Assembly (NCBI GenBank): GCA_044892525.1
Contig: CM097885.1
Coordinates: 248,682,001-248,746,000, forward strand
DNA length: 64,000 nt
Reading direction: 5' to 3'
From: Schmidtea polychroa
Lineage: Eukaryota
Under the pieces are notes generated by a model that had not been told where the DNA came from, made no database searches, and was given only the letters and a program-made list of their open reading frames with translations. Below are positions 15,080-30,066 of this stretch, piece by piece. The translations under genes and the position numbers were made by a program. Numbering within the stretch: the stretch's first letter is position 1; every line of letters begins with the position of its first letter.

Positions 15080-15412
15080 TTTAGTGAGGAATCTATGCAC
15101 CCCAGCACCCCAACCCTAAAAAAAAACAGCGCTATTGACCCATATTTTCCACATTTATATGCTTTTTTACCCCATATTCTTCACTTTTTTTAACTTTTAA
15201 ACTTTGTCCCCTATTGCCATTAACCCTTAATTTCTTCCCTTAAAAGTAAAAAAGTTCGGAATAGATGTATTTATAGATTAGTAATTCCGAGAAAAGGTAA
15301 CGGGGTGCATAGATTCCTCACTACTTGGTCTTAAGGATTTAATGTTATAAGGATTTAATGTTATAAGAATATCAGATTACCTAATTCATAATGATCTAGA
15401 TCGCCTGATCAC
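15080..15412 (+). repeat. Left terminal inverted repeat of the Polinton
   Basis: Reverse complement of 29734-30066. The first two bases are TT instead of AG. Confidence 0.95.
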
Positions 15413-15732
15413 CTTAAGGTTTTGAAAGTTTTAAAAATAAAAAATTTTATGAAAATAGTAAAACTGCTCTATGGTGGTATTTTTTTTTTTTTTTTCACTG
15501 TCCCCTCAACAGTTTTTTTTGATCCGGATCATTTTTTTTTATTTATCAACCTCTTTCGTTTATCAAATCTCTTCCAATATACAAGCTGGCCAGACTCATA
15601 CATCAGAATCAATCCGATAATAGCAGCACGCCTTATTATTCGCTTCTCGCTCACGAAGTCGATTTCAACGGTGTTTTAAGCGTGCTGCTCGAAAGTACAA
15701 ATGAATTCGAAAGCGAATCCGAAAGAGGTCCG

Positions 15733-15824
15733 AAAACAACCAAGAAATAAATGTGCACATTATAGAATCGATCCGGGGGTGTTCGAAAGACAGGTGGCGA
15801 TAATTACCGGTTCGCCACCATCAC
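15733..15824 (-). ncRNA. Probable fourth tRNA-like Pol III unit (degenerate boxes), possibly extending into the hairpin region 15580-15730
   Basis: A-box-like TGGCGAACCGG starting at 15817 and B-box-like GGATCGATTCT at 15774-15764. It sits in register (232 bp) with the other three units, contains a GGTGGCGA/TCGCCACC hairpin and has only a weak T4 at 15736-15733. Confidence 0.45.
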
Positions 15825-15974
15825 CCGTTTCAATATTTTTTTTTTCATATTTATGTTTAAAAAATAATTAATTAATAAAAAAATAAAATAAAATAAAATA
15901 AAATATACAAGTACTTTATAAATATAAGATACCCACACTATTATTTTCAAATTTTTAATATTATTTTTATGTTG

Positions 15975-16056
15975 AAAAAAAACTAACCACAGTTAGGATT
16001 TGAACCGCTATCTATTTGAACCACTGTGCCGGTCTAGCCCACTGCGCCATCAAGGT
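15975..16056 (-). ncRNA. tRNA-like Pol III unit 1 (74 nt plus T8)
   Basis: A box TGGCGCAGTGG at tRNA positions 8-19, B box GGTTCAAATCC (16006-15996), T8 terminator (15982-15975). Cloverleaf stems are poor. It carries a second A-like box (CGGCACAGTGG) and a second B-like box (GGTTCAAATAG). Confidence 0.72.
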
Positions 16057-16215
16057 TTGAATTTTTGTCATTTTTTAGACTATAAATAATCGATTCAAGT
16101 TAAAACGTTTTTGATCTTAAATTTCCAAGAGTTGCCGTTGACCAATCACCTTTAAAATTTGTACAAGTACTAAATCGAGTATGCTGATCAATATTTTGTT
16201 TAAAAAAAAAATTTG

Positions 16216-16296
16216 AAAAAAAATGACCGAAATGGGATTTGAACCCATTGGTATTGGCAATGCAGTCGAGTGCTATTACCACTAAGCTATTAGAGC
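16216..16296 (-). ncRNA. tRNA-like Pol III unit 2 (73 nt plus T8), tRNA-Cys(GCA)-like
   Basis: A box TAGCTTAGTGG, D-stem GCT/AGC, GACTGCA anticodon-loop motif as in tRNA-Cys, perfect T-arm AATGGG-TTCAAAT-CCCATT and T8 terminator. Acceptor and anticodon stems are broken. Confidence 0.78.
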
Positions 16297-16458: not shown

Positions 16459-16540
16459 AAAAAAATTGACCAAAATCGAAAATTGAACCCGGTACTCCCG
16501 GTGATAAAATTGAAGCCTATTCCCACTCCGCTATAATGGC
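16459..16540 (-). ncRNA. tRNA-like Pol III unit 3 (75 nt plus T7), tRNA-Asp/Glu-like
   Basis: A box TAGCGGAGTGG; TCACCGGGAGTACCGGGTTCAATT resembles the tRNA-Asp/Glu variable and T-arm region; the B box is degenerate at its 3' end; T7 terminator. Confidence 0.68.
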
Positions 16541-16596
16541 TTACATAATATATTTAATTAATCCTATTGTGTGTGTGTAAATTTTAATATATAAAA

Positions 16597-17889
16597 ATGA
16601 ATAATATAAATCTTAAAATTCAAGAAAAAAATAAATTAAATCTTGATTATAATAAAGAATTTACTCATGAAATCAAGAAAAACGATGTACTTAAAATCTC
16701 CCCAACTTCAGGATCTATTGCAAACTTAAATCGTAGGGGTGATATAGTTTTTCAATCTCTTCAAACATCAAACCCTATAGATATTTGTAATGCCAAATTA
16801 TATTATAAAATCGAATTAGAAATTGAAGCAAACAAAGATATAACCCTAGAAAATAATTTCTTTCCAAATTTATTCTCCAACATGAGATTAAAACTAGGAT
16901 CATCAGAAATTGAAACTGTTTTGCATCCGGGAGTATATTCTACAATGTTAAATTTTATTTTGACTGGTTGTGATTATAAAAACGAATATGGTGAATTAAC
17001 AGGTTGGATTCCTGATGTTAATAAAGGGGATTTAGATAAAGATGGTTTAGATGTAAACCATGGTTACCATAAAAGAGCTGAACTTTATAAATCTAAAAAA
17101 TTTGAAGGTTATTTTGAATTAAAACACTTGTTTGGATTCCTTCAAAACTATAATCGTATACTTCATAATGTTTTTATAGAATTCATCTGTAATAGAGTAG
17201 AAGGTGATAAAAGATTGTTCTATGGAGCTGTAGATACAAAAGCTAAATTAAAATTATCAACACTTGAATTACATATACCTGAATGGACATTAAACCCACA
17301 TTCTGAGATTAAACTCCTTGAAAGATTAAATTCCAACAAGTCTATAAATGTAAATTATTTAAATAGAATCTGTAGTGAATTTAGTATGACAGAGGGTTCA
17401 ACATATTCTATAAAGGTAGCAAATTTAGCATACCGACCAAGATATATCTTGATTGGATTCAAAGAAGTAGATTCATCTTTCCAAAAAAATAACAACTTGT
17501 TTATTCAAAAGATTGGAGTTGATAATTTAAAAACAATCCAAATTCAATTAAATAGTTCTTATTATCCAATAAATAGAATGGAATTTAATATTGAAAATAA
17601 TGAAAACATATTCCCATATCTAAATTATATTGAAACATGTTATGATTTCAAAGTTGAACCGCAATTAAGTTTAGAAGATTTCAAAAATTTATATTCTATA
17701 TTTTGTATAAATGTTTCAGACCAAGATGATCGCCTAGCCATAAATAATGTTGATGTTACACTTCATGTAACAAAGGATTCTAATTTTAAAGCTAAAGTAT
17801 ATACATTAATATTAGAAGAAAAGAAAATAGAAATGAAATTATATGGTGGAAAGATTTCAATAATCGAAAATGTTAGGGGAGATTCTTGA
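16597..17889 (+). CDS. Major capsid protein (double jelly-roll type, 430 aa)
   Basis: Size, beta-rich pattern and Polinton MCP-like motifs (LNRRGDIVF, ENNFFPNLFSNMRLKLG, FGFLQNYNRIL, RPRYILIGF, IFCINVS), within a Polinton virion module. Confidence 0.85.
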   Translation: MNNINLKIQEKNKLNLDYNKEFTHEIKKNDVLKISPTSGSIANLNRRGDIVFQSLQTSNPIDICNAKLYYKIELEIEANKDITLENNFFPNLFSNMRLKLGSSEIETVLHPGVYSTMLNFILTGCDYKNEYGELTGWIPDVNKGDLDKDGLDVNHGYHKRAELYKSKKFEGYFELKHLFGFLQNYNRILHNVFIEFICNRVEGDKRLFYGAVDTKAKLKLSTLELHIPEWTLNPHSEIKLLERLNSNKSINVNYLNRICSEFSMTEGSTYSIKVANLAYRPRYILIGFKEVDSSFQKNNNLFIQKIGVDNLKTIQIQLNSSYYPINRMEFNIENNENIFPYLNYIETCYDFKVEPQLSLEDFKNLYSIFCINVSDQDDRLAINNVDVTLHVTKDSNFKAKVYTLILEEKKIEMKLYGGKISIIENVRGDS

Positions 17890-17918
17890 TATAATCCCTG
17901 ATATTTTAACATTTTAAA

Positions 17919-19328
17919 ATGTCTTTAAATAAATATTGGAGATGTGAAACTTGTAATTGTCAAGTTACAAGACATCATAAAGCAAGCCATCTTAAAACTA
18001 AAAAACATACAGTAGGTGACCTAATTCCACGAGCTGGAGGCGATTTGCAATCTTCAAAAACAACATCTTCAATATTAAAACCTTTTACTACAGAAAAATA
18101 TCCAGGTGAAAGACATTTATTTAAACACAACTATACTGGACCAGGAACAAGATTAGATATTAGATTAGATGAAAATAATAATCCCAAACAAGGAGAAGAA
18201 CCAATAAATAGAATTGATCAAGCAGCTTTAAAACATGACATTGCATACAATTCAACAAATCTTAGAGATAGACATGTTGCAGATGTGAATTTAATACATG
18301 ATTTAAATAGTATCCAAAATCCATCAACCCAAGAAAAGATTCAAAGAGCTCTAGTTAAATTAGCAATGAAAGGTAAGATTTTCATAGGCTTAGGACACAG
18401 TCCGATCACCATGGGTGCAAGACTTCCTAGGAAAGCAAAAGATGTTGCTTATAAAAAGATTATCGAACAAGCAGAGATTGAAAGATCCCTCGAGAGTACA
18501 GCCAAGACTAGTTTACAAACCCCAACAGAATCAGAAATAAAATATGCAAAGGAATTACACCATGAATTTAGAAAAAATAAAAAATATTTAAAAGTTCAAG
18601 TACATGAAAAAGATCAAACATGGTCTGCAGATTTAGTCTTTATGCCCAAATCATCAGACCCTGAAAAATATAAAATAATTTTAACTGTAATAGATTTATA
18701 TACAAGATTTGCTTTTGCAAGATGTTTAGAAAATAAAACAGGATATTCTATTACAGAAGCATTTGAAAATATATTTGAAGAAAATCAAAGAATCCCAAAA
18801 TATTTATGGTGTGATAAAGGAACAGAATTTTATAACAAAGTTTTTACAAAGTTTTTAAATGAAAATGATATTAAATTATATTCAACAGAAAACGAAGGAA
18901 AAGCAGTCGTAGTTGAAAGATTAAATAGAACATTAAAAAATAAAATGTGGAAATATTTTACTGCTATTGGAAAACAAAAATGGAACAATGAATTGTTACA
19001 AAAGATTGTAAATGAATATAATAATGATGTACATAGTTCTATAAAATTAACACCTTTAAATGCTTCCATGAAGCCTGAAACCATTAAAGTGGTAAATATT
19101 GAAAATGATGTTATTGAAAAACCAAAGTTTAAAATTGGTGACCGAGTAAGAATATTTAAATATAAAAATAAATTTGAAAAAGGATTCACAGCAAAATGGA
19201 CAAATGAAATTTTTATTATAAATAAAATACATTATACAACTCCAATAACATATAGCATCTTTGATTTAAATAATGAAAAAATATTAGGTAGATTTTATAA
19301 TAATGAACTACAGAAAACAGATTTTTAA
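17919..19328 (+). CDS. Zinc finger + parvovirus-type phospholipase A2 + retroviral-like DDE integrase fusion (469 aa)
   Basis: N-terminal C-x2-C-x11-H-x5-H. PLA2 calcium loop YTGPG and catalytic DQAALKHDIAY. Integrase core WSAD, CDKGTEF and VVERLNRTLK (D-D-E intact). C-terminal FKIGDRVR SH3-like domain. Confidence 0.93.
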   Translation: MSLNKYWRCETCNCQVTRHHKASHLKTKKHTVGDLIPRAGGDLQSSKTTSSILKPFTTEKYPGERHLFKHNYTGPGTRLDIRLDENNNPKQGEEPINRIDQAALKHDIAYNSTNLRDRHVADVNLIHDLNSIQNPSTQEKIQRALVKLAMKGKIFIGLGHSPITMGARLPRKAKDVAYKKIIEQAEIERSLESTAKTSLQTPTESEIKYAKELHHEFRKNKKYLKVQVHEKDQTWSADLVFMPKSSDPEKYKIILTVIDLYTRFAFARCLENKTGYSITEAFENIFEENQRIPKYLWCDKGTEFYNKVFTKFLNENDIKLYSTENEGKAVVVERLNRTLKNKMWKYFTAIGKQKWNNELLQKIVNEYNNDVHSSIKLTPLNASMKPETIKVVNIENDVIEKPKFKIGDRVRIFKYKNKFEKGFTAKWTNEIFIINKIHYTTPITYSIFDLNNEKILGRFYNNELQKTDF

Positions 19329-19339
19329 GTCGACAAGCC

Positions 19340-20131
19340 CTAAAACAAACTTTTCCATATTTCAGCTTCTTCTCTATCCAAATAAATATAATTATATTTT
19401 TCTTTCCAATGATTATCAACAAACATATCAAACATATTCTTATCAGGTTCAACATTTGAAAATAAATCATTATAAATCATATTCTTATCACGGCGATCTA
19501 ATTTAAAAAATATAAAACAATTGGAATTATTTCTTATTGAATTTTTATCTAAAGCATAATATGTTTGAGATATATAAATAACATTACAATTATTATGTCG
19601 ACCTCGTGTAAAGTAACTCTTTTGAATCTCTTGATTTTTCATATTAACAACATCATCAAATATAACTAGATTCTTTTTATCTTTAGGAAGTAAATCACAA
19701 TGTAAAACATCTTCAGGTTTATTAGAGAATAAAACTTGAATTGCCTCCTGCCCTTCTTCACAAATATAATCATTTTTATTACTAATATCTGATTCTAAAA
19801 TCTTTTCCTTATACCAATCAACCATATCACAAGGTTGAAAAACTTCTTCAGGACACCTATGTTGATTTTTAAAAATATCAATTATTGCTTTTTTAGTTAA
19901 TTTATTTTCAAATCCACATTTCAAAAGTTGTAATTCTGGTTGATTTATGGTTGTAGAATAAAAGATTAAATTATTATAATCTAAAAAATCATCTTCAAGT
20001 AACATTCTCAAAACAAGTACATTCTTTCCACATCCAGAAGAACCAACAATTAATAATCTAAAATTATCAGGAAATACTTTATTATTGAATTTACTCTTAT
20101 GTCTATTTAAAATTGGTTTCCAAGTATCCAT
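19340..20131 (-). CDS. A32/FtsK-like DNA packaging ATPase (263 aa)
   Basis: Walker A GSSGCGKN, Walker B LVIFDD, and the RGRHNNCNVIYISQ arginine-finger/sensor motif. Confidence 0.92.
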   Translation of the reverse strand: MDTWKPILNRHKSKFNNKVFPDNFRLLIVGSSGCGKNVLVLRMLLEDDFLDYNNLIFYSTTINQPELQLLKCGFENKLTKKAIIDIFKNQHRCPEEVFQPCDMVDWYKEKILESDISNKNDYICEEGQEAIQVLFSNKPEDVLHCDLLPKDKKNLVIFDDVVNMKNQEIQKSYFTRGRHNNCNVIYISQTYYALDKNSIRNNSNCFIFFKLDRRDKNMIYNDLFSNVEPDKNMFDMFVDNHWKEKYNYIYLDREEAEIWKSLF

Positions 20132-20147
20132 TTTTATTTATTATAAA

Positions 20148-20726
20148 ATGACAACTGAAGAATCTTTGCAAGAATTAATAAATTCAAATAAAAATAAATC
20201 AGTTGTAATTGATGGTAAAAAATATTTTATTGGAAAACATGTAAAAGAACAAGTTAGAGCGAAGCTCCACGAAGCTAAAGAAGGTGGCATTCTTCCATTA
20301 GCTGCTTTAATACCTGCAATCATTGCTGGTTTATCAGGTGCTGCTGGAATAGCTGGAGGAATTGCAACTACAGTTCAAAAAGCTAAAGAATCTCAAAAGA
20401 CAGACCTAGAAAAAGAAAAACTACAAACTGAAATCGATTCAATGAAGAAGGTAGGGCAAGCTAAAGGGGGAGTGTCCGTTGGAAAGGGTCTCTATCTTAA
20501 TCCATATGAGGGGAGTCGGCAAAAGTCTCAGGGCAAAGGTCTCTATCTTGATCCTTATAAAGGTAGAGGTTTAAATGATTTTTTAAAAAATCAAATTTCT
20601 ACATCTGAATCTTTATCTTCAAAAGATAAAGAAGATTTAAAAAAAATATGTAAATCTTTAAAGAATGGATGCCTTTGTAAAACTAAAAATGGTAAAGGAT
20701 TATACTTGAAGCCCTTCAAACTATGA
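20148..20726 (+). CDS. Putative virion core protein with an adenovirus pX-like segment (about 192 aa, ATG at 20148)
   Basis: GGILPLAALIPAIIAG resembles adenovirus pX GGILPLLIPLIAAAIG. There are three GKGLYLxP(Y/F) repeats. The start lies in the element's AAAATG context. Confidence 0.7.
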   Translation: MTTEESLQELINSNKNKSVVIDGKKYFIGKHVKEQVRAKLHEAKEGGILPLAALIPAIIAGLSGAAGIAGGIATTVQKAKESQKTDLEKEKLQTEIDSMKKVGQAKGGVSVGKGLYLNPYEGSRQKSQGKGLYLDPYKGRGLNDFLKNQISTSESLSSKDKEDLKKICKSLKNGCLCKTKNGKGLYLKPFKL

Positions 20727-20748
20727 TACCATTTTTGATACCATTAAA

Positions 20749-21633
20749 ATGGTATATGAAGAAAGATTAGCACTTTTAAAAAAATTACAATCAGAACAAG
20801 ATAAATATAATAAAAAAGATACAACTCAACATGCTGAATCTATAATATTAAATGAGGTAATAACACAACAACAGGGGCCAACAATTAAAGCTATAAAAGA
20901 GTTGGAAGATTTCAATGAGCAAGCAAAATTTAAAGAGTTAGAAGATAAAAAACAAAAAATAAAAGAACTAGAGTGGCAGGATAAAGAAAAAGAATCCAGT
21001 GAAAACCATCCTGAAAGTCATTCTGAAAGAAATCAAAGAAAACGCAGAAGAATTTCTAATGTGGAAGAAGAAGAAATGTTTTTAAAAACAAAACCTCTTA
21101 AAGTTGATCCTAAAATTAGAGATGATTTACCTCCTTCAATTAGACCCACATTTAATACTAATACTGAAGGATATCAAATAATAACAATTAATAAACAAAA
21201 CTTTACTTTATATTCAAATTCAGAAAATAAATCACGTATTCATTCACAAAATGTTTATAATAATGAATATTTAGACTTTGAATTTACAGATGATTTTTAT
21301 AGATTACTTTGTGGATATTCTTCAGATGATGTTGAAGAAATTAAAAAATATTTAAATTTAATAAAATTAATAAGAGCTAGTTCTAAAGCAAAATATATTC
21401 AAGATTTAAAGAATTATTTAAATAAAAATGAAAAGGGTTATGTTGTTACAGAGGGAGAGGGATTAATTAGTGAAGGAAATCCCATCAATCTTTTTATTGA
21501 ATTAAGAAAACTATTAGCTGCAAGGAAAGCAGGACATAATAATTTAGATTCTGATATTTTAAAGATTTCTAAAGATTTGTTAAAACAAGGAATAATTTCA
21601 AAAGATAAATTTAATAAGTATACGAAGTTATAA
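20749..21633 (+). CDS. Polinton uncharacterised protein (294 aa)
   Basis: Intact ORF in the gene array. The C-terminal GEGL...ELRKLLAARKAGHNN...LLKQGIIS motif resembles a recurrent Maverick accessory protein. Basic RKRRR patch. Confidence 0.7.
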   Translation: MVYEERLALLKKLQSEQDKYNKKDTTQHAESIILNEVITQQQGPTIKAIKELEDFNEQAKFKELEDKKQKIKELEWQDKEKESSENHPESHSERNQRKRRRISNVEEEEMFLKTKPLKVDPKIRDDLPPSIRPTFNTNTEGYQIITINKQNFTLYSNSENKSRIHSQNVYNNEYLDFEFTDDFYRLLCGYSSDDVEEIKKYLNLIKLIRASSKAKYIQDLKNYLNKNEKGYVVTEGEGLISEGNPINLFIELRKLLAARKAGHNNLDSDILKISKDLLKQGIISKDKFNKYTKL

Positions 21634-21655
21634 ATACGAAGTTTTAAAATACAAA

Positions 21656-22120
21656 ATGACTCCTTCAATATTAGATTTTTTAAAAACATTTGGAATAAAT
21701 GCAAAAACAAATTTTGATTTAAAAGATTATGCAAATTATTTAAATTTAAAAATTAAAATATTAATGAATGATGAATTATCAAGTCTGGAGAGTCCCCTGA
21801 ATATAATAATCAATTATCAAAATTCAAATGAAAAAGGATCTCATTGGGTTTGTATATATAAGAAATCTATCTACTTTGATTCTTTTGGGATTAAACCTAC
21901 TAAAGAAGTTGAAGATTATCTCTTGAGGGGTTCTCCGATTGATTCCCCAAATGGTTATACTTTTAACTCTTTACAAGTTCAACCTTTGAATACTAAAATA
22001 TGTGGTATTTTAAGTTTATATGTTTTGTATAGATTGAATAAGGGAGAGGGAAAGGGGCATACGCAGGATTTTGAATCTATAATTCAAGAAATTTATAATG
22101 ATCTAGAATCTCTACTATAA
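21656..22120 (+). CDS. Adenain-like cysteine protease (154 aa)
   Basis: GSHWV (His), YFDSFG (Asp) and VQPLNTKICG (Gln, Cys) catalytic motifs. Confidence 0.93.
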   Translation: MTPSILDFLKTFGINAKTNFDLKDYANYLNLKIKILMNDELSSLESPLNIIINYQNSNEKGSHWVCIYKKSIYFDSFGIKPTKEVEDYLLRGSPIDSPNGYTFNSLQVQPLNTKICGILSLYVLYRLNKGEGKGHTQDFESIIQEIYNDLESLL

Positions 22121-22168
22121 GGATTTTTACTATAAGAATTTTTACTATATGAATTTACTACTAAAGAA

Positions 22169-22933
22169 ATGGAGCTTCACAACCCTCCGGAAGATAATTT
22201 AAAAAAAATGGTAAACATAATGTCAGATAAATATTCAAGAACTTTATCTATAAATTCAAAAGAATCAGAGTTTACTATAAACTTTCAAGATTCAATTAAA
22301 TTAGATCAAAATTTAAATTATGAATTGGGGCTATTATGGTTTTGTGCTTATAATACTATTTTTAATATAACTAAAGATAATAATAAATTTACTATTCAAA
22401 CTCGTGATGGGCATAAACCAGAAATTATAACAATAGAACCTGGGGCATATGAGATAAAAGATTTAAATGATATACTTTCTATAAAAACAAATGAAGGTAT
22501 TAAAATTAAAATGGATATACCAACTTCAAAATGTGTAATGACTTTGAAGAATATAAAAATTAGTTTTTTAGATAATTGTTTCTTTCACACAGTTTTAGGA
22601 TTTAAACCTATGGATATAACAATAAAAGAAGATAAAATAATAACATCAGAACATATTATAAAAATAATAAATACAAACACAATAAATATTCATTGCGATT
22701 GTATAACAGGTTCTTATAATAATGGTAAACAAACAAATGTTTTATATTCCTTTCCCTCAAACACAGTTCCTATGGGATATAAAATAGTTGAAAGAATGAA
22801 TCCTCCAAATTATTTACCTTTATGTAGAAAATATATAATGGATATTAATTTTAAAATTCTTAATCAAGAAGGAGAATTGATTGATTTTAATGGAGAAGAG
22901 ATTTCAATGTATTTACATTTGAAACAGGTTTAG
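22169..22933 (+). CDS. Minor capsid (penton-like, single jelly-roll) protein (254 aa)
   Basis: Polinton mCP-like motifs YNTIFNI, IEPGAYEI, INIHCDCITGSY, VLYSF and NQEGELIDFNGE. Confidence 0.88.
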   Translation: MELHNPPEDNLKKMVNIMSDKYSRTLSINSKESEFTINFQDSIKLDQNLNYELGLLWFCAYNTIFNITKDNNKFTIQTRDGHKPEIITIEPGAYEIKDLNDILSIKTNEGIKIKMDIPTSKCVMTLKNIKISFLDNCFFHTVLGFKPMDITIKEDKIITSEHIIKIINTNTINIHCDCITGSYNNGKQTNVLYSFPSNTVPMGYKIVERMNPPNYLPLCRKYIMDINFKILNQEGELIDFNGEEISMYLHLKQV

Positions 22934-22973
22934 TTCCTCTCAGGGGACTCCGTCCATTTTAAATTATTAATAA

Positions 22974-23984
22974 ATGAGTTCTTATATTCCATGTAATAGA
23001 GGTGGTGGAACAATAAAAACAGGGTTTAATACAGAAGAAATATTAACTTTAACAGAAAATAAATATATTAATGAAAGAGGTGATTCAATGAAGGGTGATT
23101 TAATTTTAAATGGACACAAGATAAAAGAATTATCTTTTCCAACTGATGAAGCTGATGCAGTTAATAAGAAATATGTAGATGGTGTTAAAAAATATACTGA
23201 TTTAACAACAACAAGAATTGAAAGTTCATTAACAACAAAAATTGATTCAATGGAATCAAAGCTTAATAATATCGAACAACGATTTAATGATAAATTTGAC
23301 AAGTTACAAAGTCTGTTAACTGAACAAGTTGTAAAGTTAAATACTGCTATATTAAATTCTAAAGATAAACAAATTATGAATACTAAATTTAATGCAATAT
23401 ATAATATAATAAATGAGATGATTACATCATTTAATAAAAGAATTTCAAATTTAGAGTCTCATGGAACACACATTAACACCACACATAGTATTAGAAAAAG
23501 AGCTGCTGAATTAGAACAGAATAAAACATTATTACCCCATACATATAAACATTTTATAGAACCAAGTTTAATAACAACAAAAAGTAAAGAATGGGGTGTT
23601 TTTATGGTTGTAAAAATTATTGATCCTTATTTCTTTTTGTTTGATGATGATAATGAAAGAATGAAATGGTTTGTGAAATGTGATTATAATAGTAAGCTTG
23701 AAAAGGGTGATGTTATAATGACTAGTTATGATTTACCACACGGAGATTGGTATGTTAATACTCATTCACATGGACTACATAAAGTTAAAAGTAAGAATAT
23801 TCATTTTTCTAGTTCACTTGTACAATATATAGATTTAATATTTTATGAAAAAAAGGTTGATGTTGATGAAGTTCGTAAAGCATTGAGAGAATTGTATAAA
23901 GATATCCTCTCAACAAGAGTTTCTTTTGATATCCGAGTATTGGTGCCAGATGGTGCTCAGAAGAATAAAGTCTTATTTTTTTAA
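22974..23984 (+). CDS. Putative fibre/spike-like protein (336 aa)
   Basis: GDSMKGDLILNGHKIKELSFPTDEADAVNKKYVD tail-fibre-type motif, then a long heptad coiled coil and a globular C-terminus. It follows the penton gene. Confidence 0.55.
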   Translation: MSSYIPCNRGGGTIKTGFNTEEILTLTENKYINERGDSMKGDLILNGHKIKELSFPTDEADAVNKKYVDGVKKYTDLTTTRIESSLTTKIDSMESKLNNIEQRFNDKFDKLQSLLTEQVVKLNTAILNSKDKQIMNTKFNAIYNIINEMITSFNKRISNLESHGTHINTTHSIRKRAAELEQNKTLLPHTYKHFIEPSLITTKSKEWGVFMVVKIIDPYFFLFDDDNERMKWFVKCDYNSKLEKGDVIMTSYDLPHGDWYVNTHSHGLHKVKSKNIHFSSSLVQYIDLIFYEKKVDVDEVRKALRELYKDILSTRVSFDIRVLVPDGAQKNKVLFF

Positions 23985-23992
23985 TTATTAAA

Positions 23993-24604
23993 ATGGAAGA
24001 AGTAAGAGAAGAAAAAATTTACCCAGAATTGAGATCATCAGGATATTATTCCGAAGGTCACAAAGGTTCCAAGGCCTCGGCTCCCACAGAACTTGAAATT
24101 ATGAGAGTAAAAGAATTTAAATCAGAAACCTTACATTTACAAGATTTATTAAAGCATTATAAAAAAATTAAAAATAGATGGAATAAAGGGAATACAGTTT
24201 TAAAAGTTATAGGTTATTCTTTAGGATTTGCATCTGCAATATTAACAGTTATTTTACCCATAACTTTACCAGTTTTAACACTTGCACCTGTAATACTTGG
24301 AAGTATTTCTGTGGCTGATGGTTTCTTAACTGAAATAGTTTCATTATCTTATACTTCTAAAAAGAAAAGTTTATATAGAGAAGTTTGTTTATCAATAGAA
24401 TTAGGAATCTCTAAATTATTTTTATTTCAATTAAAAGCTTTGGAAGATGGAATCCTGACAGACGAAGAAATAATGAAATCAAATCAAATAATACAAGATA
24501 TAAAGAATGAGGTTATAAGATTAAAAAGGGAGGGCATGGTGGCTAATGTTATAAGTAATAAAAAAACATCTCGAGAAAAATGGTTAAAGAATTCTTACTT
24601 ATAA
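23993..24604 (+). CDS. Polinton accessory membrane protein (203 aa, hydrophobic hairpin)
   Basis: IYPEL...SAP N-terminus, hydrophobic stretch VIGYSLGFASAILTVILPITLPVLTLAPVILG and C-terminal KALEDGILTDEE motif, resembling a family seen in Mavericks and some large DNA viruses. Confidence 0.65.
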   Translation: MEEVREEKIYPELRSSGYYSEGHKGSKASAPTELEIMRVKEFKSETLHLQDLLKHYKKIKNRWNKGNTVLKVIGYSLGFASAILTVILPITLPVLTLAPVILGSISVADGFLTEIVSLSYTSKKKSLYREVCLSIELGISKLFLFQLKALEDGILTDEEIMKSNQIIQDIKNEVIRLKREGMVANVISNKKTSREKWLKNSYL

Positions 24605-24698
24605 AATGGGTGTATTTTTAAAAAAGTAGATCAGGTTGCTATAGTTGCTTAAATTAATTGTCGACATTTTATTATTAAAAAATTAAATATCGTTGGTT

Positions 24699-25244
24699 TC
24701 AGTTATGGTTGAAAGCCAACCTATGAATCATTAATTTATGATCTTTAAATTCTTTATCACTTAGACCTTTTATATATTCAGGATCAGTATTAAAATATTT
24801 AAGTTCTAAACATATAGGATTAAAAACTTGAGAATATAAAGGTTTCTCGATTTCTCTCTCGGGATAAATAATTTCAACATTATAAATATCAAGATCAGTA
24901 ATCTTTGTATCATATAACTTATTCAACTTTTCTAGATTTTTTATTATAGGGATTAAATTATTTCCAATAGGTAGAGTTGTCTTTAATATGAATCTCTTAT
25001 CATCATAATTTGATAATGATACTTTTTGAGATTCTATCAAGTGAATATCATGGTTTTCACTTTTAAGTTGATGTATTTCATCAATTTTATCTTTATGATT
25101 TGGATTCAATGTATCTATATAATCTTGATGAGAAAGATTCTTTGCAACCACTCTCTGTATTCCTTTACATCTGTTATCCTTTAAATTAGTAATATTTTTT
25201 ATAATTTCAAAAATGTTATTTTCTTGATTTTTAGTTTCCATCAT
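24699..25244 (-). CDS. Stand-alone paralogue of the pPolB C-terminal region (thumb plus extension), 181 aa
   Basis: Aligns by eye at roughly 60% identity over about 150 aa with the last about 165 aa of the adjacent PolB (KGIQ, NYDDKRFIL, KTTLPIGN, ELKYFNTDPEYI). It has its own ATG in TATAAAATG context and an open frame. Confidence 0.85.
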   Translation of the reverse strand: MMETKNQENNIFEIIKNITNLKDNRCKGIQRVVAKNLSHQDYIDTLNPNHKDKIDEIHQLKSENHDIHLIESQKVSLSNYDDKRFILKTTLPIGNNLIPIIKNLEKLNKLYDTKITDLDIYNVEIIYPEREIEKPLYSQVFNPICLELKYFNTDPEYIKGLSDKEFKDHKLMIHRLAFNHN

Positions 25245-25268
25245 TTTATAGTGTTAAAATTCTAATTC

Positions 25269-28200
25269 TTAGACCAGTCGTAATTGATTTATAATTATTT
25301 CTGCAGTAATGCTTTTTAACATTAATTTATGTGATTTAAAGTCTTCTGGTGTTAGTCCTTGGATATATTCAGGATCAGTATTAAAATATTTAAGTTCTAT
25401 AGGTTTTATATTTTGAACTTGATTATATAAAGGTTTAGGAATTAATATTTCAGGATATTGGATTTCTACTTTAGCAAGTTGAAGGTCTGTAATCTCTAGG
25501 TTATAAATTTCATTTATTTTATCAAGATTTTTTATTATAGGGATTAAATCATTTCCAATAGGTAATGTTGTCTTCAAGTCAGAAAGTATAAATCTTTTAT
25601 CATCATAATTTGTTATAGCAATCTTGTTACACTCTTCAAGATATATATTATGTTTCTCTGATTTAAGATGATGGGTTTTAGCAATTTTATTTTTATAATT
25701 TATATTTAATGAATCTTTATACTCTTGATGTGTGAAGGTTTTTGACACTGATTTTTGAATTCCTTTACTTTTATTTTCTTTATAGCTTTTCGGGTTTTCA
25801 GGGAATGAAGGATATTCAAATGTGTGATCTATTTCAACAGATCCTTCTCCCTCCCCTATTATAAATTTTATTGTATGCTCTTTCATAATTGGTTTGTCTT
25901 TCATTTCAAGAGAATATTGTTTAGGTCTAATAAACACTCCTCCACTTATTGGAGTATTTGGTTTTTCATCTTTAAAAGTAAATAATTCTCCAGAGTTGTT
26001 TATTAATTTATTTAAGGTTTCGTTTTCACTTATTTCCTTTTTTAAATCTTTACTATGACCTTTTAAAAACATACTATCAGTGTCCATAGCATGCATGGAT
26101 ATTCGATCTCCAAAATGTGGTACTAGAACATCATAGTAGGCTTCATACATTTGAAGCTTTGAAAGTTCTAAAATTGAAAACCCTATAAAGATTGGTTTAT
26201 TATAAGTTTTTACAGAGTTTTTAATCTCTATGGCTATAAGGTTACTAGAGAATATCTCGGCATTTTTAAATGTGGGCTTTCCAATTATCCGGTTGTACCT
26301 ATTAAGGTCTTTGGATGTATTGGTCAAAAGCTCTACACGTGTGTACTTGTCTATATTCTCCATGGTCTTTCCAAAGACCGCATTGTTCAGGAGTTTGTAA
26401 ATCATATCAAGAAATGCATTTCCAGCTCTCTTTGCTGCATTTCTTTTCAAAATATTTCCCTCTATGAATTTTTTCATAAAAGGGGCTTGTCGAAATTTAA
26501 TAATGGAATGTACTTTTTTTAAAACCATTCCATGGGAGAGATAAAACTGAAGGAGTCTATAATGACAAAGGTAATCAGTTTTATCGGTCTGATCGCATAA
26601 AAGTTTTATACAGGGCGATCTATCCTGAGCCATCTGCCAGTCTGAAAGTTCTTCAGTCGAGATCTTTCTTCTTACTGGAGCAAATGGAAAGAATCTTGTC
26701 CTGGATTTTATTTCATTGGGATATTCAAGATCGCATTCTATGACATATCCAAATTGAGAATCTTTTGGTGTTTTTAGAATTTCTTGTATTAATTCCTCAG
26801 TGGGCTCTTCCCAGGTGAACTTGCCAATTGGAAGGTATTGAGTCATTACTCCCGCATATAAAGCTGTTGCATCTATATACATTATTTCAGAAGGATTAGA
26901 AAGACCTTCCATTATTTCCTTACGATCTTCTGGGTTTGTTATTTCTACATATAGAGCATCAGGATCTTTGAAAAATTTAGGATAAAGAGTTGTAAAATTA
27001 TTAGCATTTATTTCTCTATTCCCTTGTACTGAAGAAATACCTCCTCTAATATTATATTTATATACATTAAACATATCAAGCTCAACTAATAATTCAATAG
27101 TTTTATTTCTTACTGCTACATCTTCATCAGTCCATATGGTATATAATAATATATCCCAAGCTAGAGAGGGAGCGGTTATATAATTATAAGGTTTTAATTC
27201 AAAAGCTTTTGAAAATGTCTCGAAGCAATCAGCTAAGATATAAACATCCAAGGAAAGATACATGTCAGTATATTCTCCAAGGTTTCTACAGTTGAATAGA
27301 TTCCACATTTTAACTGCACGGGAATATTCCTGATCAGAAATCCCTGATTGTGTTAAAACAGAAAAGAAATCTTCTTGGGGTGGGAGTAATTCATTATATT
27401 TTTCAAAGGAGTCTATATAATCATATGGATAGATTCCTTTTGCTAGACAGGTATTATATTCCTCTAATGGAATATTGTTTTTTAATAACACATGTTCTTT
27501 TGTATATTTAAAATCCTCAGGGTTCATAGTTTTAGCAATCCCATCCAAAGACATCCCTAAGAAATTTAACGAGTCCAAAAACTTAAAGCATCCATATTGA
27601 ATGCTTTTATATTTTTCTTTTGTAAGTCCAATAACCTTGAAAGAGTTTTTAGCATTTGCGGCCAGATGCTTAATGAATAGGTGAATATCATAGCCAAAAA
27701 GATTGTGAAATATAAATGGTATGTGTGTTGGTTTTTTACAATTGAGATTACATTTTTTATGGGCTGCTCCTCTGTAATTATTTTCTCTTTTAAAATGATC
27801 ATGGTCTGCAACCTTTGGCTCCTCATCCTCCTCCTGAATATCAAACTCTTGTTTACACATCCAGCAGTGTGTTGCATTTTTATATTCTTCCTCTTGTTCT
27901 TCTGAAAAATTCATAGGAAAGTTGGATTTTAATATTATATATAATTCATGTTCTAGATTATTTAAAGTTTTAACAAAATGATCTAGAGTCTCTTTGTCAG
28001 AAGTTCCTCTAAATGAATATTCTCTAGATTCTACAAGTTCTGGATAATTACTTTTAAAAAACATTTTATAAGCAGAGGGTAATTGTTTTGTTAGTTTTAC
28101 AGTATTAGTTTTTGTTCGTCTTAGTTTTACATTTATAGCTTCAAAATCACAATAAACCACTCCCAATGCTTCTAATAGATTGGAATAGTTTTTAAACCTC

Positions 28201-29660
28201 ATATTAGCATTTTTCTTGTGTGGCATTTTTATTAAAGCAGGTTGATTCTTACAACAGAGTCTCTCATGTTTAATAGCAGCAAGTTTTGAACTTGAATGAT
28301 ATAAACATCTTTTACAACATATGCCTCCACGAATGAGTGTGTTTCCTTTCATAAAACTTTGAAAATTCTTTATTAAGATATAATGAAGTTTTTTATCTAA
28401 CATAGTGCCTCCGGACGCAGTGCTTTTTGCTTCTGGTTCTAATGAAATGTCTTCTTCTGCTTCTCTCCTCGGGTGAACGCTTTGAACCTCTTCACCATAT
28501 TCTTCTCCATCAAAGTCTTCATCTGGTTTACCTTCTTCTAATATTAAAAGATCTACTTCTCTCTTTTCATCTGAGATTTCCATGTTAGAAATGTAAATAG
28601 GAATAATGTGTTTATAATTTTTATTTTTTCTAGTTTTTGTAATTTTGGTTGGAATGAATTGATAAATATTAATTTTAAGATTATTTAATTTTTCAAATGC
28701 TGGAACATCTTCAATTTTCATTGGGTGGGAAAAATCTTTTGGATAAATTAATTCAGATTCATATTCTTCATATTTTTGAACTCTCTGTGGGTTAGTTGCT
28801 TGAGGATGTAAGTGTGCAAGTATTGACCATTGAAAACATTTATTATCTTTATTCTGTACATTTATAACATGGTTGGAGGTGAATGGTGTGTGAATAAAAG
28901 ATTTAGGATTTGGTGGTGCGCCTCTCCAGTATTCAATCTCTATATTTTGAAAAGAGTGGAATCTTAAATTAGATTCTCCTAGTTCTTGTTCCACCTGTTC
29001 TTGTTTTTCTTCCAATTCTTTAGCTATATCATTAACAAGTTTATTTCCTGCTTTTGTAGAAAATAAATATTTATATGAGGTTTCAATTTTTACATCTAGA
29101 GGCATTGCGATCGAATCATCTCCTCTCCAGTATTTTGCATTTCCTGTAAATTTAACTTTTATAACATTAAATCTTGATCTACCAAATTTTTTTATAGCAT
29201 CATCCATTGATGATATTATTTTTTTTTTATTTTCTCTTATATATTGCATGATTGATCTGGGTCCTCGTTTTACTTCTGCAATTACATCGGTGTGATTGAA
29301 GTCATCCCAATTAAACTCTAGTTTTTCAGCTTTTTCAGTCATTGAGTTTGAATCAGAATCTTTTGCTTCAAGACCACAATCTTCTATGTGTCTTAAGTAA
29401 AAAGATTTTATCCTCATCGTTTTTCCACATGCTGAACATTCGAATATTTCTCTGTTTTTAGGAACTCCAATACAATTTTTAAAATGCTTCTTATAACCTG
29501 AAAATAAATATCTATCCTTACATTTAGTACAGATTTTGGAATTAGTGTCATCTAGTGTGTTAGCTTTTATTAAATGGTCTTTTGATTTTTTATGAGATGT
29601 TAAAGCAGTTTTATTTTTAAAATTTTTTTCACAAATTTCACAATTGAAAATAGCTTCCAT
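25269..29660 (-). CDS. Protein-primed family B DNA polymerase (1463 aa)
   Basis: Exo I YCDFE, Exo II FHNLFGYD, Exo III YLSLDV. Pol A YIDATALY, Pol B KLLNNAVFGKTMEN, Pol C DTDS, RPKQYS. Endonuclease VII-like insert (CWMC...DHDH...AHKKCN). N-terminal zinc fingers. Confidence 0.97.
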   Translation of the reverse strand: MEAIFNCEICEKNFKNKTALTSHKKSKDHLIKANTLDDTNSKICTKCKDRYLFSGYKKHFKNCIGVPKNREIFECSACGKTMRIKSFYLRHIEDCGLEAKDSDSNSMTEKAEKLEFNWDDFNHTDVIAEVKRGPRSIMQYIRENKKKIISSMDDAIKKFGRSRFNVIKVKFTGNAKYWRGDDSIAMPLDVKIETSYKYLFSTKAGNKLVNDIAKELEEKQEQVEQELGESNLRFHSFQNIEIEYWRGAPPNPKSFIHTPFTSNHVINVQNKDNKCFQWSILAHLHPQATNPQRVQKYEEYESELIYPKDFSHPMKIEDVPAFEKLNNLKINIYQFIPTKITKTRKNKNYKHIIPIYISNMEISDEKREVDLLILEEGKPDEDFDGEEYGEEVQSVHPRREAEEDISLEPEAKSTASGGTMLDKKLHYILIKNFQSFMKGNTLIRGGICCKRCLYHSSSKLAAIKHERLCCKNQPALIKMPHKKNANMRFKNYSNLLEALGVVYCDFEAINVKLRRTKTNTVKLTKQLPSAYKMFFKSNYPELVESREYSFRGTSDKETLDHFVKTLNNLEHELYIILKSNFPMNFSEEQEEEYKNATHCWMCKQEFDIQEEDEEPKVADHDHFKRENNYRGAAHKKCNLNCKKPTHIPFIFHNLFGYDIHLFIKHLAANAKNSFKVIGLTKEKYKSIQYGCFKFLDSLNFLGMSLDGIAKTMNPEDFKYTKEHVLLKNNIPLEEYNTCLAKGIYPYDYIDSFEKYNELLPPQEDFFSVLTQSGISDQEYSRAVKMWNLFNCRNLGEYTDMYLSLDVYILADCFETFSKAFELKPYNYITAPSLAWDILLYTIWTDEDVAVRNKTIELLVELDMFNVYKYNIRGGISSVQGNREINANNFTTLYPKFFKDPDALYVEITNPEDRKEIMEGLSNPSEIMYIDATALYAGVMTQYLPIGKFTWEEPTEELIQEILKTPKDSQFGYVIECDLEYPNEIKSRTRFFPFAPVRRKISTEELSDWQMAQDRSPCIKLLCDQTDKTDYLCHYRLLQFYLSHGMVLKKVHSIIKFRQAPFMKKFIEGNILKRNAAKRAGNAFLDMIYKLLNNAVFGKTMENIDKYTRVELLTNTSKDLNRYNRIIGKPTFKNAEIFSSNLIAIEIKNSVKTYNKPIFIGFSILELSKLQMYEAYYDVLVPHFGDRISMHAMDTDSMFLKGHSKDLKKEISENETLNKLINNSGELFTFKDEKPNTPISGGVFIRPKQYSLEMKDKPIMKEHTIKFIIGEGEGSVEIDHTFEYPSFPENPKSYKENKSKGIQKSVSKTFTHQEYKDSLNINYKNKIAKTHHLKSEKHNIYLEECNKIAITNYDDKRFILSDLKTTLPIGNDLIPIIKNLDKINEIYNLEITDLQLAKVEIQYPEILIPKPLYNQVQNIKPIELKYFNTDPEYIQGLTPEDFKSHKLMLKSITAEIIINQLRLV

Positions 29661-29733
29661 TTTTAAAAGAATCTTTTGGTTGGATACGATGTTTTGGTTT
29701 TGATATTAATTTTTATTTTTTTTAAATCTAAAA

Positions 29734-30066
29734 GTGATCAGGCGACCTAGATCATTATGAATTAGGTAATCTGATATTCTTATAACATTAAATCCTTATA
29801 ACATTAAATCCTTAAGACCAAGTAGTGAGGAATCTATGCATCCCGTTACCTTTTCTCGGAATTACTAATCTATAAATACATCTATTCCGAACTTTTTTAC
29901 TTTTAAGGGAAGAAATTAAGGGTTAATGGCAATAGGGGACAAAGTTTAAAAGTTAAAAAAAGTGAAGAATATGGGGTAAAAAAGCATATAAATGTGGAAA
30001 ATATGGGTCAATAGCGCTGTTTTTTTTGAGGGTTGGGGTGCTGGGGTGCATAGATTCCTCACTACT
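29734..30066 (-). repeat. Right terminal inverted repeat of the Polinton
   Basis: Reverse complement of 15080-15412; ends in ACTACT. Confidence 0.95.

What the first reader, a model, noticed from the sequence alone, without database searches (positions are those of the whole stretch)
15080..30066. Young, fully intact polintovirus with a complete virion module
Seen: eleven uninterrupted ORFs and TIRs differing at only about 5 of 333 positions, while the other long transposon copies in the window are frameshifted or deleted. Established: MCP, penton, ATPase, protease, integrase and pPolB define Polintoviruses, and virions have rarely been demonstrated for animal elements. Inference: a recent insertion that could still replicate or form particles.
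Basis: partly seen in the sequence, partly recalled or inferred. Interest (0 to 1): 0.7.

Follow-up and report, generated by a model that had tools for sequence, protein, structure and literature searches.

The report
Young Polinton with Pol III RNAs
This is a recently inserted virus-like transposon (a Polinton) whose capsid, packaging and replication genes are all unbroken, a known kind of element, but one of its ends is damaged and it carries a small cluster of tRNA-like and strongly folded non-coding RNA genes of unproven function.

Summary
The element is real: a 14,987-bp Polinton/Maverick with 11 open ORFs and 333-bp TIRs differing at 5 positions. Major capsid, penton, packaging ATPase, adenain protease, integrase and pPolB were each confirmed by profile, fold or motif tests. 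'Fully intact' is not supported. Two of the five TIR differences are the outermost left bases, so that end lacks the (AGT)2 motif, and there is no target-site duplication. One of the 11 ORFs is a diverged duplicate of the pPolB C-terminus. Three are degenerate tRNA-like genes with their own T-run terminators. The fourth runs into a ~300-nt, strand-specifically folded RNA (z -4.4) with a pre-miRNA-like hairpin and no Rfam family. Each TIR also starts with a 246-bp unit bounded by its own inverted terminal motif. The cassette could be a counterpart of adenovirus VA RNA, a chromatin barrier or a captured passenger (tRNA pseudogenes plus a SINE). No relative's DNA was available to decide.

The parts
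15080..15412 (+). Left TIR (333 bp). Its two outermost bases do not match the right arm, so the end motif is incomplete; no TSD beside it
15080..15325 (.). Left self-inverted end unit (246 bp): the 24-bp terminal motif recurs inverted at 15302-15325; the single strand folds its two ends into a stem
15332..15367 (+). 16-bp tandem repeat inside the TIR (mirror copy at 29779-29814)
15440..15829 (-). Pol III-type unit 4. A box 15817-15807 (1 mismatch), B box 43 nt on (2 mismatches), folded core 15826-15524 with a 25-bp hairpin at 15620-15560, A16 run near 15481-15496, first run of 5 or more T 373 nt after the A box
   Evidence: no Rfam family
15979..16056 (-). Pol III-type unit 3: degenerate tRNA-like gene, perfect A and B boxes, T8 terminator
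16216..16296 (-). Pol III-type unit 2: tRNA-like gene, Rfam tRNA 32.4 bits (gathering 29), perfect A and B boxes, T8 terminator; not called by ARAGORN
16459..16540 (-). Pol III-type unit 1: degenerate tRNA-like gene, A box perfect, B box 2 mismatches, T7 terminator; 74% like unit 2 over 95 bp
16597..17889 (+). Major capsid protein, double jelly-roll (430 aa)
17919..19328 (+). Integrase (469 aa): N-terminal zinc finger, parvovirus-type PLA2 domain (residues 66-147; H106, D107), rve core with D238, D299, E333
   Evidence: catalytic assignments from known motifs, not tested against homologues
19340..20131 (-). A32/FtsK-type packaging ATPase (263 aa); Walker A ends Lys-Asn, as in its 8 nearest relatives
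20148..20726 (+). ORF4 (192 aa): basic, one hydrophobic segment, weak adenovirus pX match (E 0.04), three repeated Gly-containing motifs; probable core or membrane-active precursor (inferred)
20749..21633 (+). ORF5 (294 aa): no significant family
21656..22120 (+). Adenain-type maturation protease (154 aa; H63, D75, Q109, C116)
22169..22933 (+). Penton / minor capsid protein, single jelly-roll (254 aa)
22974..23984 (+). ORF8 (336 aa): N-terminal motif like phage tail fibres (PHROG E 2e-5), then a probable coiled coil; probable vertex fibre (inferred)
   Evidence: Atlas gave only unnamed clusters under 0.9
23993..24604 (+). ORF9 (203 aa): strongly hydrophobic segment, no family
24699..25244 (-). 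ORF10 (181 aa): diverged tandem paralogue of the pPolB C-terminus (58% aa, dN/dS 0.34), with its own AAA-ATG start context
25269..29660 (-). [quoted passage not shown]
29734..30066 (-). Right TIR with a complete (AGT)2 end; self-inverted unit 29821-30066, whose inner motif has one mismatch
14950..15079 (+). Left half of a small hAT-type element interrupted by the Polinton
30067..30274 (+). Right half of the same small hAT-type element

Best explanation
This is a recently integrated, coding-intact Polinton provirus (Polintoviricetes, Eupolintoviridae type) lying between an ARFGEF/BIG-like gene and an ATG4-like gene and inserted into a small hAT element. Its left junction is imperfect, most likely from a short deletion after insertion that took the TSD and the outermost bases (inferred). 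How it works: the rve integrase inserts the linear genome through its (AGT)2 ends (family knowledge). The pPolB, whose vOTU protease would release a terminal-protein primer, copies the excised genome from the TIRs (domains shown, activity inferred). MCP and penton build an icosahedral shell, the A32 ATPase pumps in DNA and adenain matures the precursors (folds shown, assembly inferred). ORF8 (fibre-like), ORF4 (pX-like) and the PLA2 domain on the integrase would serve attachment and membrane entry (inferred). The 24-bp motif repeated inverted inside each TIR lets each single-stranded end fold back into a short local duplex, which could act as an origin without end-to-end pairing (fold shown, role hypothetical). 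The left non-coding region is a cassette of four tandem Pol III genes read away from the capsid gene. The three short units kept promoter boxes and terminators but lost a decoding cloverleaf, so they are not tRNAs. My preferred reading of unit 4 (about 0.3) is an abundant structured decoy or Dicer substrate that blunts small-RNA silencing, as adenovirus VA RNAs do. The stated confidence refers to the identity, youth and damaged end of the element, not to the cassette's function.
For: Gene identities. pPolB catalytic residues match 53-60 of the 60 homologues aligned (the top 60 of 120 listed), and the unusual residues in motifs A and C are shared with the two closest homologues. ATPase Walker B Asp 62 of 62, arginine finger 62 of 62; the Walker A Asn occurs in 8 of 62, all in one clade with the query (SH-aLRT 98, quick tree of 55 rows), so it is not a lesion of this copy. 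Youth: 3 internal TIR differences (0.45% per arm, 95% CI 0.09-1.3%) and no stops. The flanks belong together: a 10-bp motif occurs 3 times in 64 kb, twice in the left flank and once in the right, with 0.01 expected, between matching hAT-type ends. Pol III units: 5 A-box + B-box pairs in the window, 4 of them in this 720-bp array on one strand at 43-44 nt spacing and about 240 bp apart; 40 shuffles gave a mean of 0.5 and a maximum of 2. Boxes are 8 of 11 invariant across units 1-3, against 3-6 of 32 between the boxes. Unit 4 folds at -106 kcal/mol, z -4.43 on the minus strand against -1.53 on the plus strand. Confident helices hold 16 G-U pairs and no single A-C mismatch, which favours RNA-level over DNA-palindrome selection. 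36 host control folds reached at best z -2.4.
Against: There is no transcription, particle or copy-number evidence. The lack of a TSD could also be imprecise integration or an assembly error, and the scaffold has gaps 1.2 and 3 kb to the left. If all three internal TIR differences arose after insertion, zero stops has only p 0.04-0.07; this mild tension is also what a collapsed consensus would give. The boundaries of the RNA core were chosen after seeing the fold, which inflates the z of -5.3; in a blind 300-nt scan the region ranked 6th of 624 windows. Unit 4 has the weakest promoter boxes, a T4 run 81 nt after its A box that might end transcription early, and SINE-like features (A16 tail, possible A-rich TSD, no own terminator). 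No related element's DNA could be obtained, so conservation of the cassette is untested. Tandem low-scoring tRNA hits already occur in protist PLV tables (PMC12220804, Table S11).
Confidence: 0.85

Rival explanations
1. One reading: a fully intact provirus that can still excise, replicate and form particles by itself.
For: All six core genes are open and keep catalytic motifs; the structural proteins fold as expected; near-identical but distinct relatives exist (MCP 97%, cluster of 9 sequences; ATPase 93%, cluster of 10).
Against: The left end lacks the terminal motif and there is no TSD; no expression or particle data; the papers read state that Polinton virions have not been observed (PMC8097293; bioRxiv 2023.08.22.554363).
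Confidence: 0.25
2. The intact sequence is a consensus artefact of several collapsed copies in a gapped assembly.
For: N gaps at 11360-12101 and 13795-13927; missing TSD; mild mismatch between TIR divergence and absence of stops.
Against: Both flanks are halves of one small hAT-type element sharing a motif found nowhere else in the window; the two TIR arms keep private differences, which a collapse tends to erase; the nearest database relatives differ by 3-7% in protein.
Confidence: 0.12
3. Cassette rival 1: passengers. Units 1-3 are captured, duplicated and decaying host tRNA genes, and unit 4 is a retroposed host Pol III RNA or SINE.
For: Units 1 and 2 are 74% alike over 95 bp including flank; cloverleaf arms are broken; unit 4 has an A16 tail, a possible A-rich TSD and no terminator of its own; tandem weak tRNA hits are common in protist PLV regions (PMC12220804, Table S11).
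Against: Boxes, spacing and terminators are kept while the middles are unalignable; no other copy of unit 4 or of the short units occurs in the 64-kb window; the G-U bias shows the fold is not simply decayed, although a young retrocopy of a structured host RNA would show the same.
Confidence: 0.4
4. Cassette rival 2: it acts as DNA. TFIIIC/Pol III-bound tRNA-like genes form a chromatin barrier or open region that shields the capsid promoter from silencing; the RNAs are by-products.
For: Selection on boxes and terminators but not on decoding arms; position between the left TIR and the first gene; the region keeps CpG (o/e 1.44) while the coding part is depleted (0.35). The barrier role of tRNA genes is recalled knowledge, not from a call.
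Against: It does not explain the strand-specific 300-nt fold and the 25-bp G-U-rich hairpin of unit 4.
Confidence: 0.25
5. The copy is older than it looks and is kept intact by host selection, for example as an inducible defence against a large DNA virus.
For: Proposed for vertebrate Mavericks (PMC8097293, passage seen); loss of a mobile end with intact genes would fit.
Against: TIRs are still 99% alike internally; integrase, ORF10 and all accessory genes are open too; nothing in the window links it to a helper virus.
Confidence: 0.08

Closest known systems
Animal Polintons/Mavericks = adintoviruses (family Eupolintoviridae, order Amphintovirales; PMC8502044, PMC8097293)
   Same: 15-kb size, TIRs of about 330 bp, (AGT)2 end motif at the right end, pPolB with vOTU, rve integrase, A32/FtsK ATPase, adenain, DJR hexon, penton, PLA2 and pX-like and fibre-like accessory genes.
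   Different: No TSD and an incomplete left end in this copy. PLA2 is fused to the integrase, whereas it is a separate PLA2X gene in the Starrett map seen and a separate CAP ORF in Spodoptera Mavericks (PMC5803895). Also a pPolB C-terminal paralogue, a Lys-Asn Walker A, self-inverted 246-bp end units and a Pol III cassette; none of these was mentioned in the passages read. Named pPolB relatives are only 32-36% identical (15 of 120 listed carry a taxon: 14 insects, 1 sponge).
HNH/EndoVII-bearing pPolB Polintons (nematode and oomycete pPolB2, bioRxiv 2023.08.22.554363; Spodoptera Mavericks, PMC5803895)
   Same: A Cys/His nuclease-like insert in the exonuclease region, conserved in 56-60 of 60 homologues; 30 of 120 listed relatives carry PF02945 (its name, endonuclease VII, is recalled).
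   Different: Placement in the pPolB2 clade was not tested (no reference sequences); Pfam gave no endonuclease hit on the insert alone.
Adenovirus VA RNAs (PMC4378190)
   Same: Tandem Pol III-type genes with internal A/B boxes, a strongly paired RNA with long stems, in a virus of the same phylum.
   Different: Lengths are about 75 nt (three units) and about 300-390 nt, not about 160 nt; no Rfam match; transcription and any action on Dicer or PKR are untested.
MHV68 tRNA-pre-miRNA chimeras and BLV/foamy-virus Pol III miRNA cassettes (PMC4378190)
   Same: tRNA-type promoter followed by a pre-miRNA-sized hairpin; several units in an array.
   Different: Units 1-3 end directly after the tRNA-like part; the head of unit 4 does not fold as a cloverleaf and its hairpin sits inside a multibranch fold.
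tRNA genes in protist PLVs and virophages (PMC12220804: 558 Rfam tRNA hits in 8,300 genomes)
   Same: tRNA-like units inside polinton-like elements, some as pairs or triplets 120-240 bp apart with scores of 30-45 bits (Table S11 rows seen).
   Different: The S11 rows seen are protist hosts (no Metazoa or Arthropoda match in that sheet) and are read as codon-compensating tRNAs; no long structured Pol III RNA is described in the section read.

Membership tests
Polinton/Maverick (gene-content definition) | [quoted passage not shown] | tested here: met
   PF03175 E 3e-14; catalytic motifs match homologues
Polinton/Maverick (gene-content definition) | Retrovirus-like rve integrase | tested here: met
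   PF00665 E 8e-12; D238, D299, E333 motifs located
Polinton/Maverick (gene-content definition) | 13-25 kb with TIRs of 100-1500 bp | tested here: met
   14,987 bp; 333-bp TIRs, 5 differences
Eupolintoviridae / adintovirus virion module | [quoted passage not shown] | tested here: met
   PF21738 E 6e-26; model pLDDT 90, Foldseek E 3e-14 to PBCV-1 and Sputnik MCPs
Eupolintoviridae / adintovirus virion module | Single jelly-roll penton | tested here: met
   model pLDDT 94; mavirus penton E 5e-11, Z 13.6, rmsd 7.4 over 227 residues
Eupolintoviridae / adintovirus virion module | A32/FtsK packaging ATPase | tested here: met
   PF04665 E 1e-8; Walker B and arginine finger conserved, Walker A has a clade-wide Asn; activity untested
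Eupolintoviridae / adintovirus virion module | Adenain-type cysteine protease | tested here: met
   Atlas 0.96-0.97 to clusters with Peptidase_C5 on 15-62% of members; His, Asp, Gln, Cys motifs located; Pfam and PDB sequence searches alone did not detect it
Eupolintoviridae / adintovirus virion module | Formation of virions or free linear genomes | not testable with these tools
   No reads, expression or EM data
Alphadintovirus vs Betadintovirus | Clustering of PolB, hexon and penton with the reference genomes | not tested
'Intact Maverick' as defined in PMC8097293 | Conserved intronless core ORFs | tested here: met
   Six core genes identified; PZ and PW homologues not assigned
'Intact Maverick' as defined in PMC8097293 | 6-bp target-site duplication | tested here: not met
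   None found; this copy is not filed as intact
'Intact Maverick' as defined in PMC8097293 | End motif at both termini | tested here: not met
   Present at the right end, incomplete at the left
tRNA genes (units 1-3) | Complete cloverleaf with a canonical anticodon arm | tested here: not met
   ARAGORN 0; Rfam 1 of 3 above gathering; arms paired: acceptor 5 of 7 each, anticodon 5, 2 and 3 of 5, T arm 4, 5 and 2 of 5
Pol III type-2 genes (units 1-4) | Internal A and B boxes and a T-run terminator | tested here: met
   weakest for unit 4. Box consensus patterns are recalled, not from a call
Pol III type-2 genes (units 1-4) | Transcription by Pol III | not testable with these tools
   No RNA data
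Adenovirus VA RNA | About 160 nt with the VA fold | tested here: not met
   Lengths differ; no VA family among the matches at E up to 10
Adenovirus VA RNA | Antagonism of dsRNA sensors or Dicer | not testable with these tools
   Needs RNA and reporter assays
SINE / retroposed Pol III RNA (unit 4) | A/B-box head and A-rich tail | tested here: met
SINE / retroposed Pol III RNA (unit 4) | Flanking TSD | tested here: inconclusive
   An A-rich 12-bp candidate of low complexity
SINE / retroposed Pol III RNA (unit 4) | Many dispersed genomic copies | tested here: inconclusive
   None in the 64-kb window; rest of the genome not available

The most novel reading that the evidence does not exclude
The four-unit Pol III cassette is a conserved, transcribed part of this Polinton lineage. 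Its ~300-nt folded RNA is a decoy or Dicer substrate that suppresses host small-RNA silencing: a functional counterpart, and possibly a model for the origin, of adenovirus VA RNAs in the group from which adenoviruses arose, evolved from duplicated tRNA genes whose intermediate stages (units 1-3) sit beside it.
Probability: 0.27. Interest if true: 0.75.

Novelty: new variant of a known kind. Interest (0 to 1): 0.45.

Why it matters
As a young, coding-intact Polinton it is one of hundreds known and matters only as one more candidate for the open question of whether animal Polintons make virions; its damaged left end makes it a poorer candidate than a sister copy with both ends. The cassette matters more. 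No Pol III non-coding RNA of an animal Polinton turned up in the searches made here. If it is conserved and expressed, it would show how these proviruses evade host silencing and would link tRNA genes to VA-type viral RNAs. It is cheap to test with existing genomes and small-RNA data.

Tried and rejected
Relatives' DNA. Two scans of GTDB genome contigs, with the MCP and ATPase alignments, found no relative, and a tblastn of MCP against phage records found none. Conservation of the cassette, of the self-inverted ends, of ORF10 and of the PLA2-integrase fusion therefore stays unchecked, as do copy number and host identity.

The ATPase Walker A Asn as an inactivating lesion of this copy: rejected, since it is shared by 8 relatives of 52-93% identity in one clade. 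The Ala before pPolB motif C and the Thr-Ala in motif A as lesions: rejected, shared with the two closest homologues.

Units 1-3 as real tRNAs: rejected. Unit 4 as a known RNA such as SRP, 7SK, RNase P/MRP, a ribozyme or a miRNA family: none listed; the best matches were E 2.6-8.2 (mir-15 13 bits against a gathering score of 57) and are treated as chance. A resemblance of its 5' end to the SRP Alu domain is recalled only and was not supported by Rfam. Targets of the hairpin arms inside the window: none significant.

The protease was not found by Pfam, PHROGs or PDB sequence search; only the Atlas and motifs identify it. ORF5 and ORF9 have no significant family; ORF8 gave only sub-0.9 unnamed Atlas clusters and PDB fibre matches at E 0.04-0.3. 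The ATPase tree is the quick tree, not the finished careful search; 8 of 62 relatives were left out (6 shorter than 225 aa and the two weakest hits). No complex prediction was run.


Full report
OBSERVATION. The stretch 15080-30066 (14,987 bp) holds 11 large open ORFs covering 85% of its length, with gaps of 8-94 bp. Outside it, none of 96 stop-free frames of 62 aa or more encodes a whole transposase; hAT and Tc1/mariner-type hits are fragments, the longest 379 aa. Three corrections follow. Two of the five TIR differences are the outermost bases of the left arm, so the (AGT)2 motif typical of Maverick ends (PMC8097293) is complete only on the right. No target-site duplication was found under any nearby choice of boundaries. 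ORF10 is a duplicate of the last 165 aligned residues of the polymerase (58% identity). The scaffold has N gaps 1.2 and 3 kb to the left.

IDENTITY OF THE GENES. MCP: Pfam DJR E 6e-26; the AlphaFold model (pLDDT 90) matches PBCV-1, Sputnik, iridovirus and mavirus capsid proteins at E about 1e-13 to 3e-14. Penton: no Pfam hit, but 1,312 relatives at E up to 0.001, and a model (pLDDT 94) matching mavirus penton (E 5e-11; Z 13.6, rmsd 7.4 over 227 residues) and the adenovirus, PBCV-1 and Sputnik pentons. Protease: missed by Pfam, PHROGs and PDB sequence search, placed with Peptidase_C5 clusters by the Atlas at 0.96-0.97, with His63, Asp75, Gln109 and Cys116 in the expected motifs. ATPase: Pox_A32. 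Its Walker A has Asn in place of Thr/Ser, but 8 of 62 relatives share this and form one clade with the query, so it is a lineage trait and not damage. Integrase: zinc finger, PLA2 domain and rve core in one frame. pPolB: the vOTU Cys and His, exonuclease I-III, an HNH/EndoVII-like insert and polymerase motifs A-C all match 53-60 of the 60 top homologues aligned, out of 120 listed. ORF8 has a phage tail-fibre-like motif and ORF4 a weak pX match; ORF5 and ORF9 remain unassigned. The virion module is thus complete at the level of sequence and fold.

AGE AND SITE. The three internal TIR differences give 0.45% per arm (95% CI 0.09-1.3%). No stop in about 12,030 sites bounds neutral divergence at 0.4-0.5%. 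The two figures agree only loosely (p 0.04-0.07 at the point estimate), so some TIR differences may predate insertion, or the sequence may be partly a consensus. The element interrupts a small hAT-type element with matching ends at 14950 and 30274; a 10-bp motif found only three times in the window lies in both halves. The flanks therefore belong together, and a short deletion at the left junction is the simplest account of the missing TSD and end bases (inference). The site lies between an ARFGEF/BIG-like and an ATG4-like gene. The host is an AT-rich, intron-bearing eukaryote, probably an invertebrate animal (inference); all 15 named pPolB relatives are animal but only 32-36% identical. Unnamed relatives at 97% (MCP) and 93% (ATPase), in clusters of 9 and 10 sequences, show a family of close but distinct sequences.

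The 24-bp terminal motif recurs, inverted, 246 bp inside each arm and nowhere else in the window. Each end is thus a small unit with its own inverted termini, and its single strand folds into a terminal stem. It might serve as a local origin for protein-primed synthesis, or be mobilised as a mini-element; both are hypotheses.

Between the left TIR and the capsid gene, on the minus strand, A boxes start at 16533, 16289, 16049 and 15817, each with a B box 43-44 nt on. A lenient scan found 5 such pairs in 64 kb; the fifth lies inside the MCP gene on the other strand. Forty shuffles gave a mean of 0.5 and at most 2 (the box patterns are recalled consensus). Units 1-3 end in T7-T8 just after a tRNA-length body. 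Only unit 2 passes the Rfam tRNA threshold, ARAGORN calls none, and the arms are broken, while the boxes are 8 of 11 invariant against 3-6 of 32 between them. Unit 4 has weaker boxes and continues into a fold of -106 kcal/mol (z -4.43; 0 of 100 shuffles as good), whereas the opposite strand gives z -1.53. It forms a closing helix, a long stem and a junction with three hairpins, one a 25-bp stem with a 7-nt loop (z -3.84). Confident helices hold 16 G-U pairs and no single A-C mismatch, which points to selection on an RNA of that strand. Controls: 36 folds of the 18 most GC-rich host windows reached at best z -2.4; a blind scan ranked the region 6th of 624, behind mostly two-stranded inverted repeats and one coding window. 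No Rfam family matches. Against a viral origin, unit 4 has an A16 run, a possible A-rich TSD and no terminator of its own, as a retroposed RNA would, and a T4 run lies 81 nt after its A box. No second copy occurs in the window.

MECHANISM. Shown: gene identities, folds, retained catalytic residues, end structure, promoter boxes and RNA fold. Inferred from the family (PMC11161782, PMC8502044): integration by the rve integrase, release of a terminal-protein primer by vOTU, protein-primed replication, capsid assembly, packaging and maturation. Inferred more weakly: entry through fibre, pX-like and PLA2 functions. For the cassette I rank: passenger tRNA pseudogenes plus SINE about 0.4; functional VA-like or miRNA-yielding RNA about 0.3; DNA-level barrier about 0.25. 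The short units may be barrier or passenger while unit 4 is the active RNA, so these readings are not exclusive. Whether this copy can excise with its incomplete left end is open.

COMPARISON AND NOVELTY. It is a Polinton by gene content, but not an 'intact' one by the definition in PMC8097293. Coding-intact animal Polintons are common in print (134 in 17 vertebrates, PMC8097293; 266 Polintons in 66 nematode genomes, bioRxiv 2023.08.22.554363), and both papers state that virions have not been seen. tRNA hits in polinton-like elements are also in print (558 hits, PMC12220804), including weak tandem pairs and triplets in protist hosts. Five literature searches combining Polinton, Maverick or adintovirus with tRNA, tRNA-like, Pol III, VA RNA, microRNA or non-coding RNA returned no report of a Pol III cassette or structured RNA in an animal Polinton. 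The library lacks most subscription papers and Repbase, so this is weak evidence of novelty. One search for a PLA2-integrase fusion gave three papers; the two whose passages I read show PLA2 as a separate gene or only name it. One search on palindromic TIRs and two on virions were read as listings only.

PAPERS SEEN. PMC8502044: passages, part 1 of 3 of Results, and a term search of its supplement, which was cut when stored. PMC11161782: passages. bioRxiv 10.1101/2023.08.22.554363: passages; supplements not seen. PMC8097293: passages; supplements not seen. PMC12220804: passages, the ncRNA section and parts of the supplementary tables (first rows and part 39 of Table S11). bioRxiv 10.64898/2026.10.13.758929: passages and one section; supplements not seen. 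PMC4378190, PMC3671162 and PMC5803895: passages. Unseen supplements and genome maps could hold animal elements with tRNA-like units.

VERDICT. The overlooked Pol III cassette and self-inverted ends make it a new variant worth one comparative analysis. Overall interest is 0.45; the VA-like reading has probability about 0.27 and would deserve 0.75.

Noticed in passing
window 16597-29660: CpG is depleted in the element's genes beyond codon usage (33 codon-junction CpGs against 74 +/- 7 in shuffles; GpC not depleted), while the host flanks have CpG o/e 0.9-1.0 and the Pol III region 1.44. This suggests methylation-driven loss or anti-CpG selection in the lineage's history.
   Followed up: partly
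window 19340-20131 and relatives P0312-P0319: A clade of nine Polinton packaging ATPases has Asn where Walker A normally has Thr/Ser. That such a change disables other P-loop enzymes is recalled knowledge; here it is kept over about 50% divergence.
   Followed up: partly
window 24699-25244: The pPolB C-terminal paralogue could be the stub of a displaced polymerase (replicase exchange is described in bioRxiv 2023.08.22.554363 and 10.64898/2026.10.13.758929) or a retained accessory subunit. It is open over 181 codons with dS about 0.8 and has the same start context as the other genes.
   Followed up: partly
window 16552-29705: All 11 start codons are preceded by an A-rich run, 9 of them by AAA directly, with very short intergenic gaps.
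   Followed up: no
window 1534-10499 (+) and 44463-61744 (-): Host genes: exons of an ARFGEF/BIG-like gene (BIG2_C hits at 8675, 10040, 10173) and of an ATG4-like peptidase C54 gene (44463, 44913, 61496); the Polinton lies between them. The host was not identified.
   Followed up: partly
window 12864-13060: A second small hAT-type element with a perfect 8-bp TSD.
   Followed up: no
window 52076-53045: A 970-bp element with 39-bp inverted ends, 95% complementary; related sequence at 49609-49726.
   Followed up: no
window 2420-3104, 55179-55429, 60421-61212, 63567-63970: Tandem arrays with units of 75 bp, 81 bp, 9/13/22 bp (very AT-rich) and about 63 bp.
   Followed up: no
window 39350-40165, 41796-42420, 49044-49260: Three diverged copies (76-86%) of one unclassified repeat.
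   Followed up: no
window 36114: An isolated perfect A-box match without a B box, possibly a decayed tRNA-derived head.
   Followed up: no
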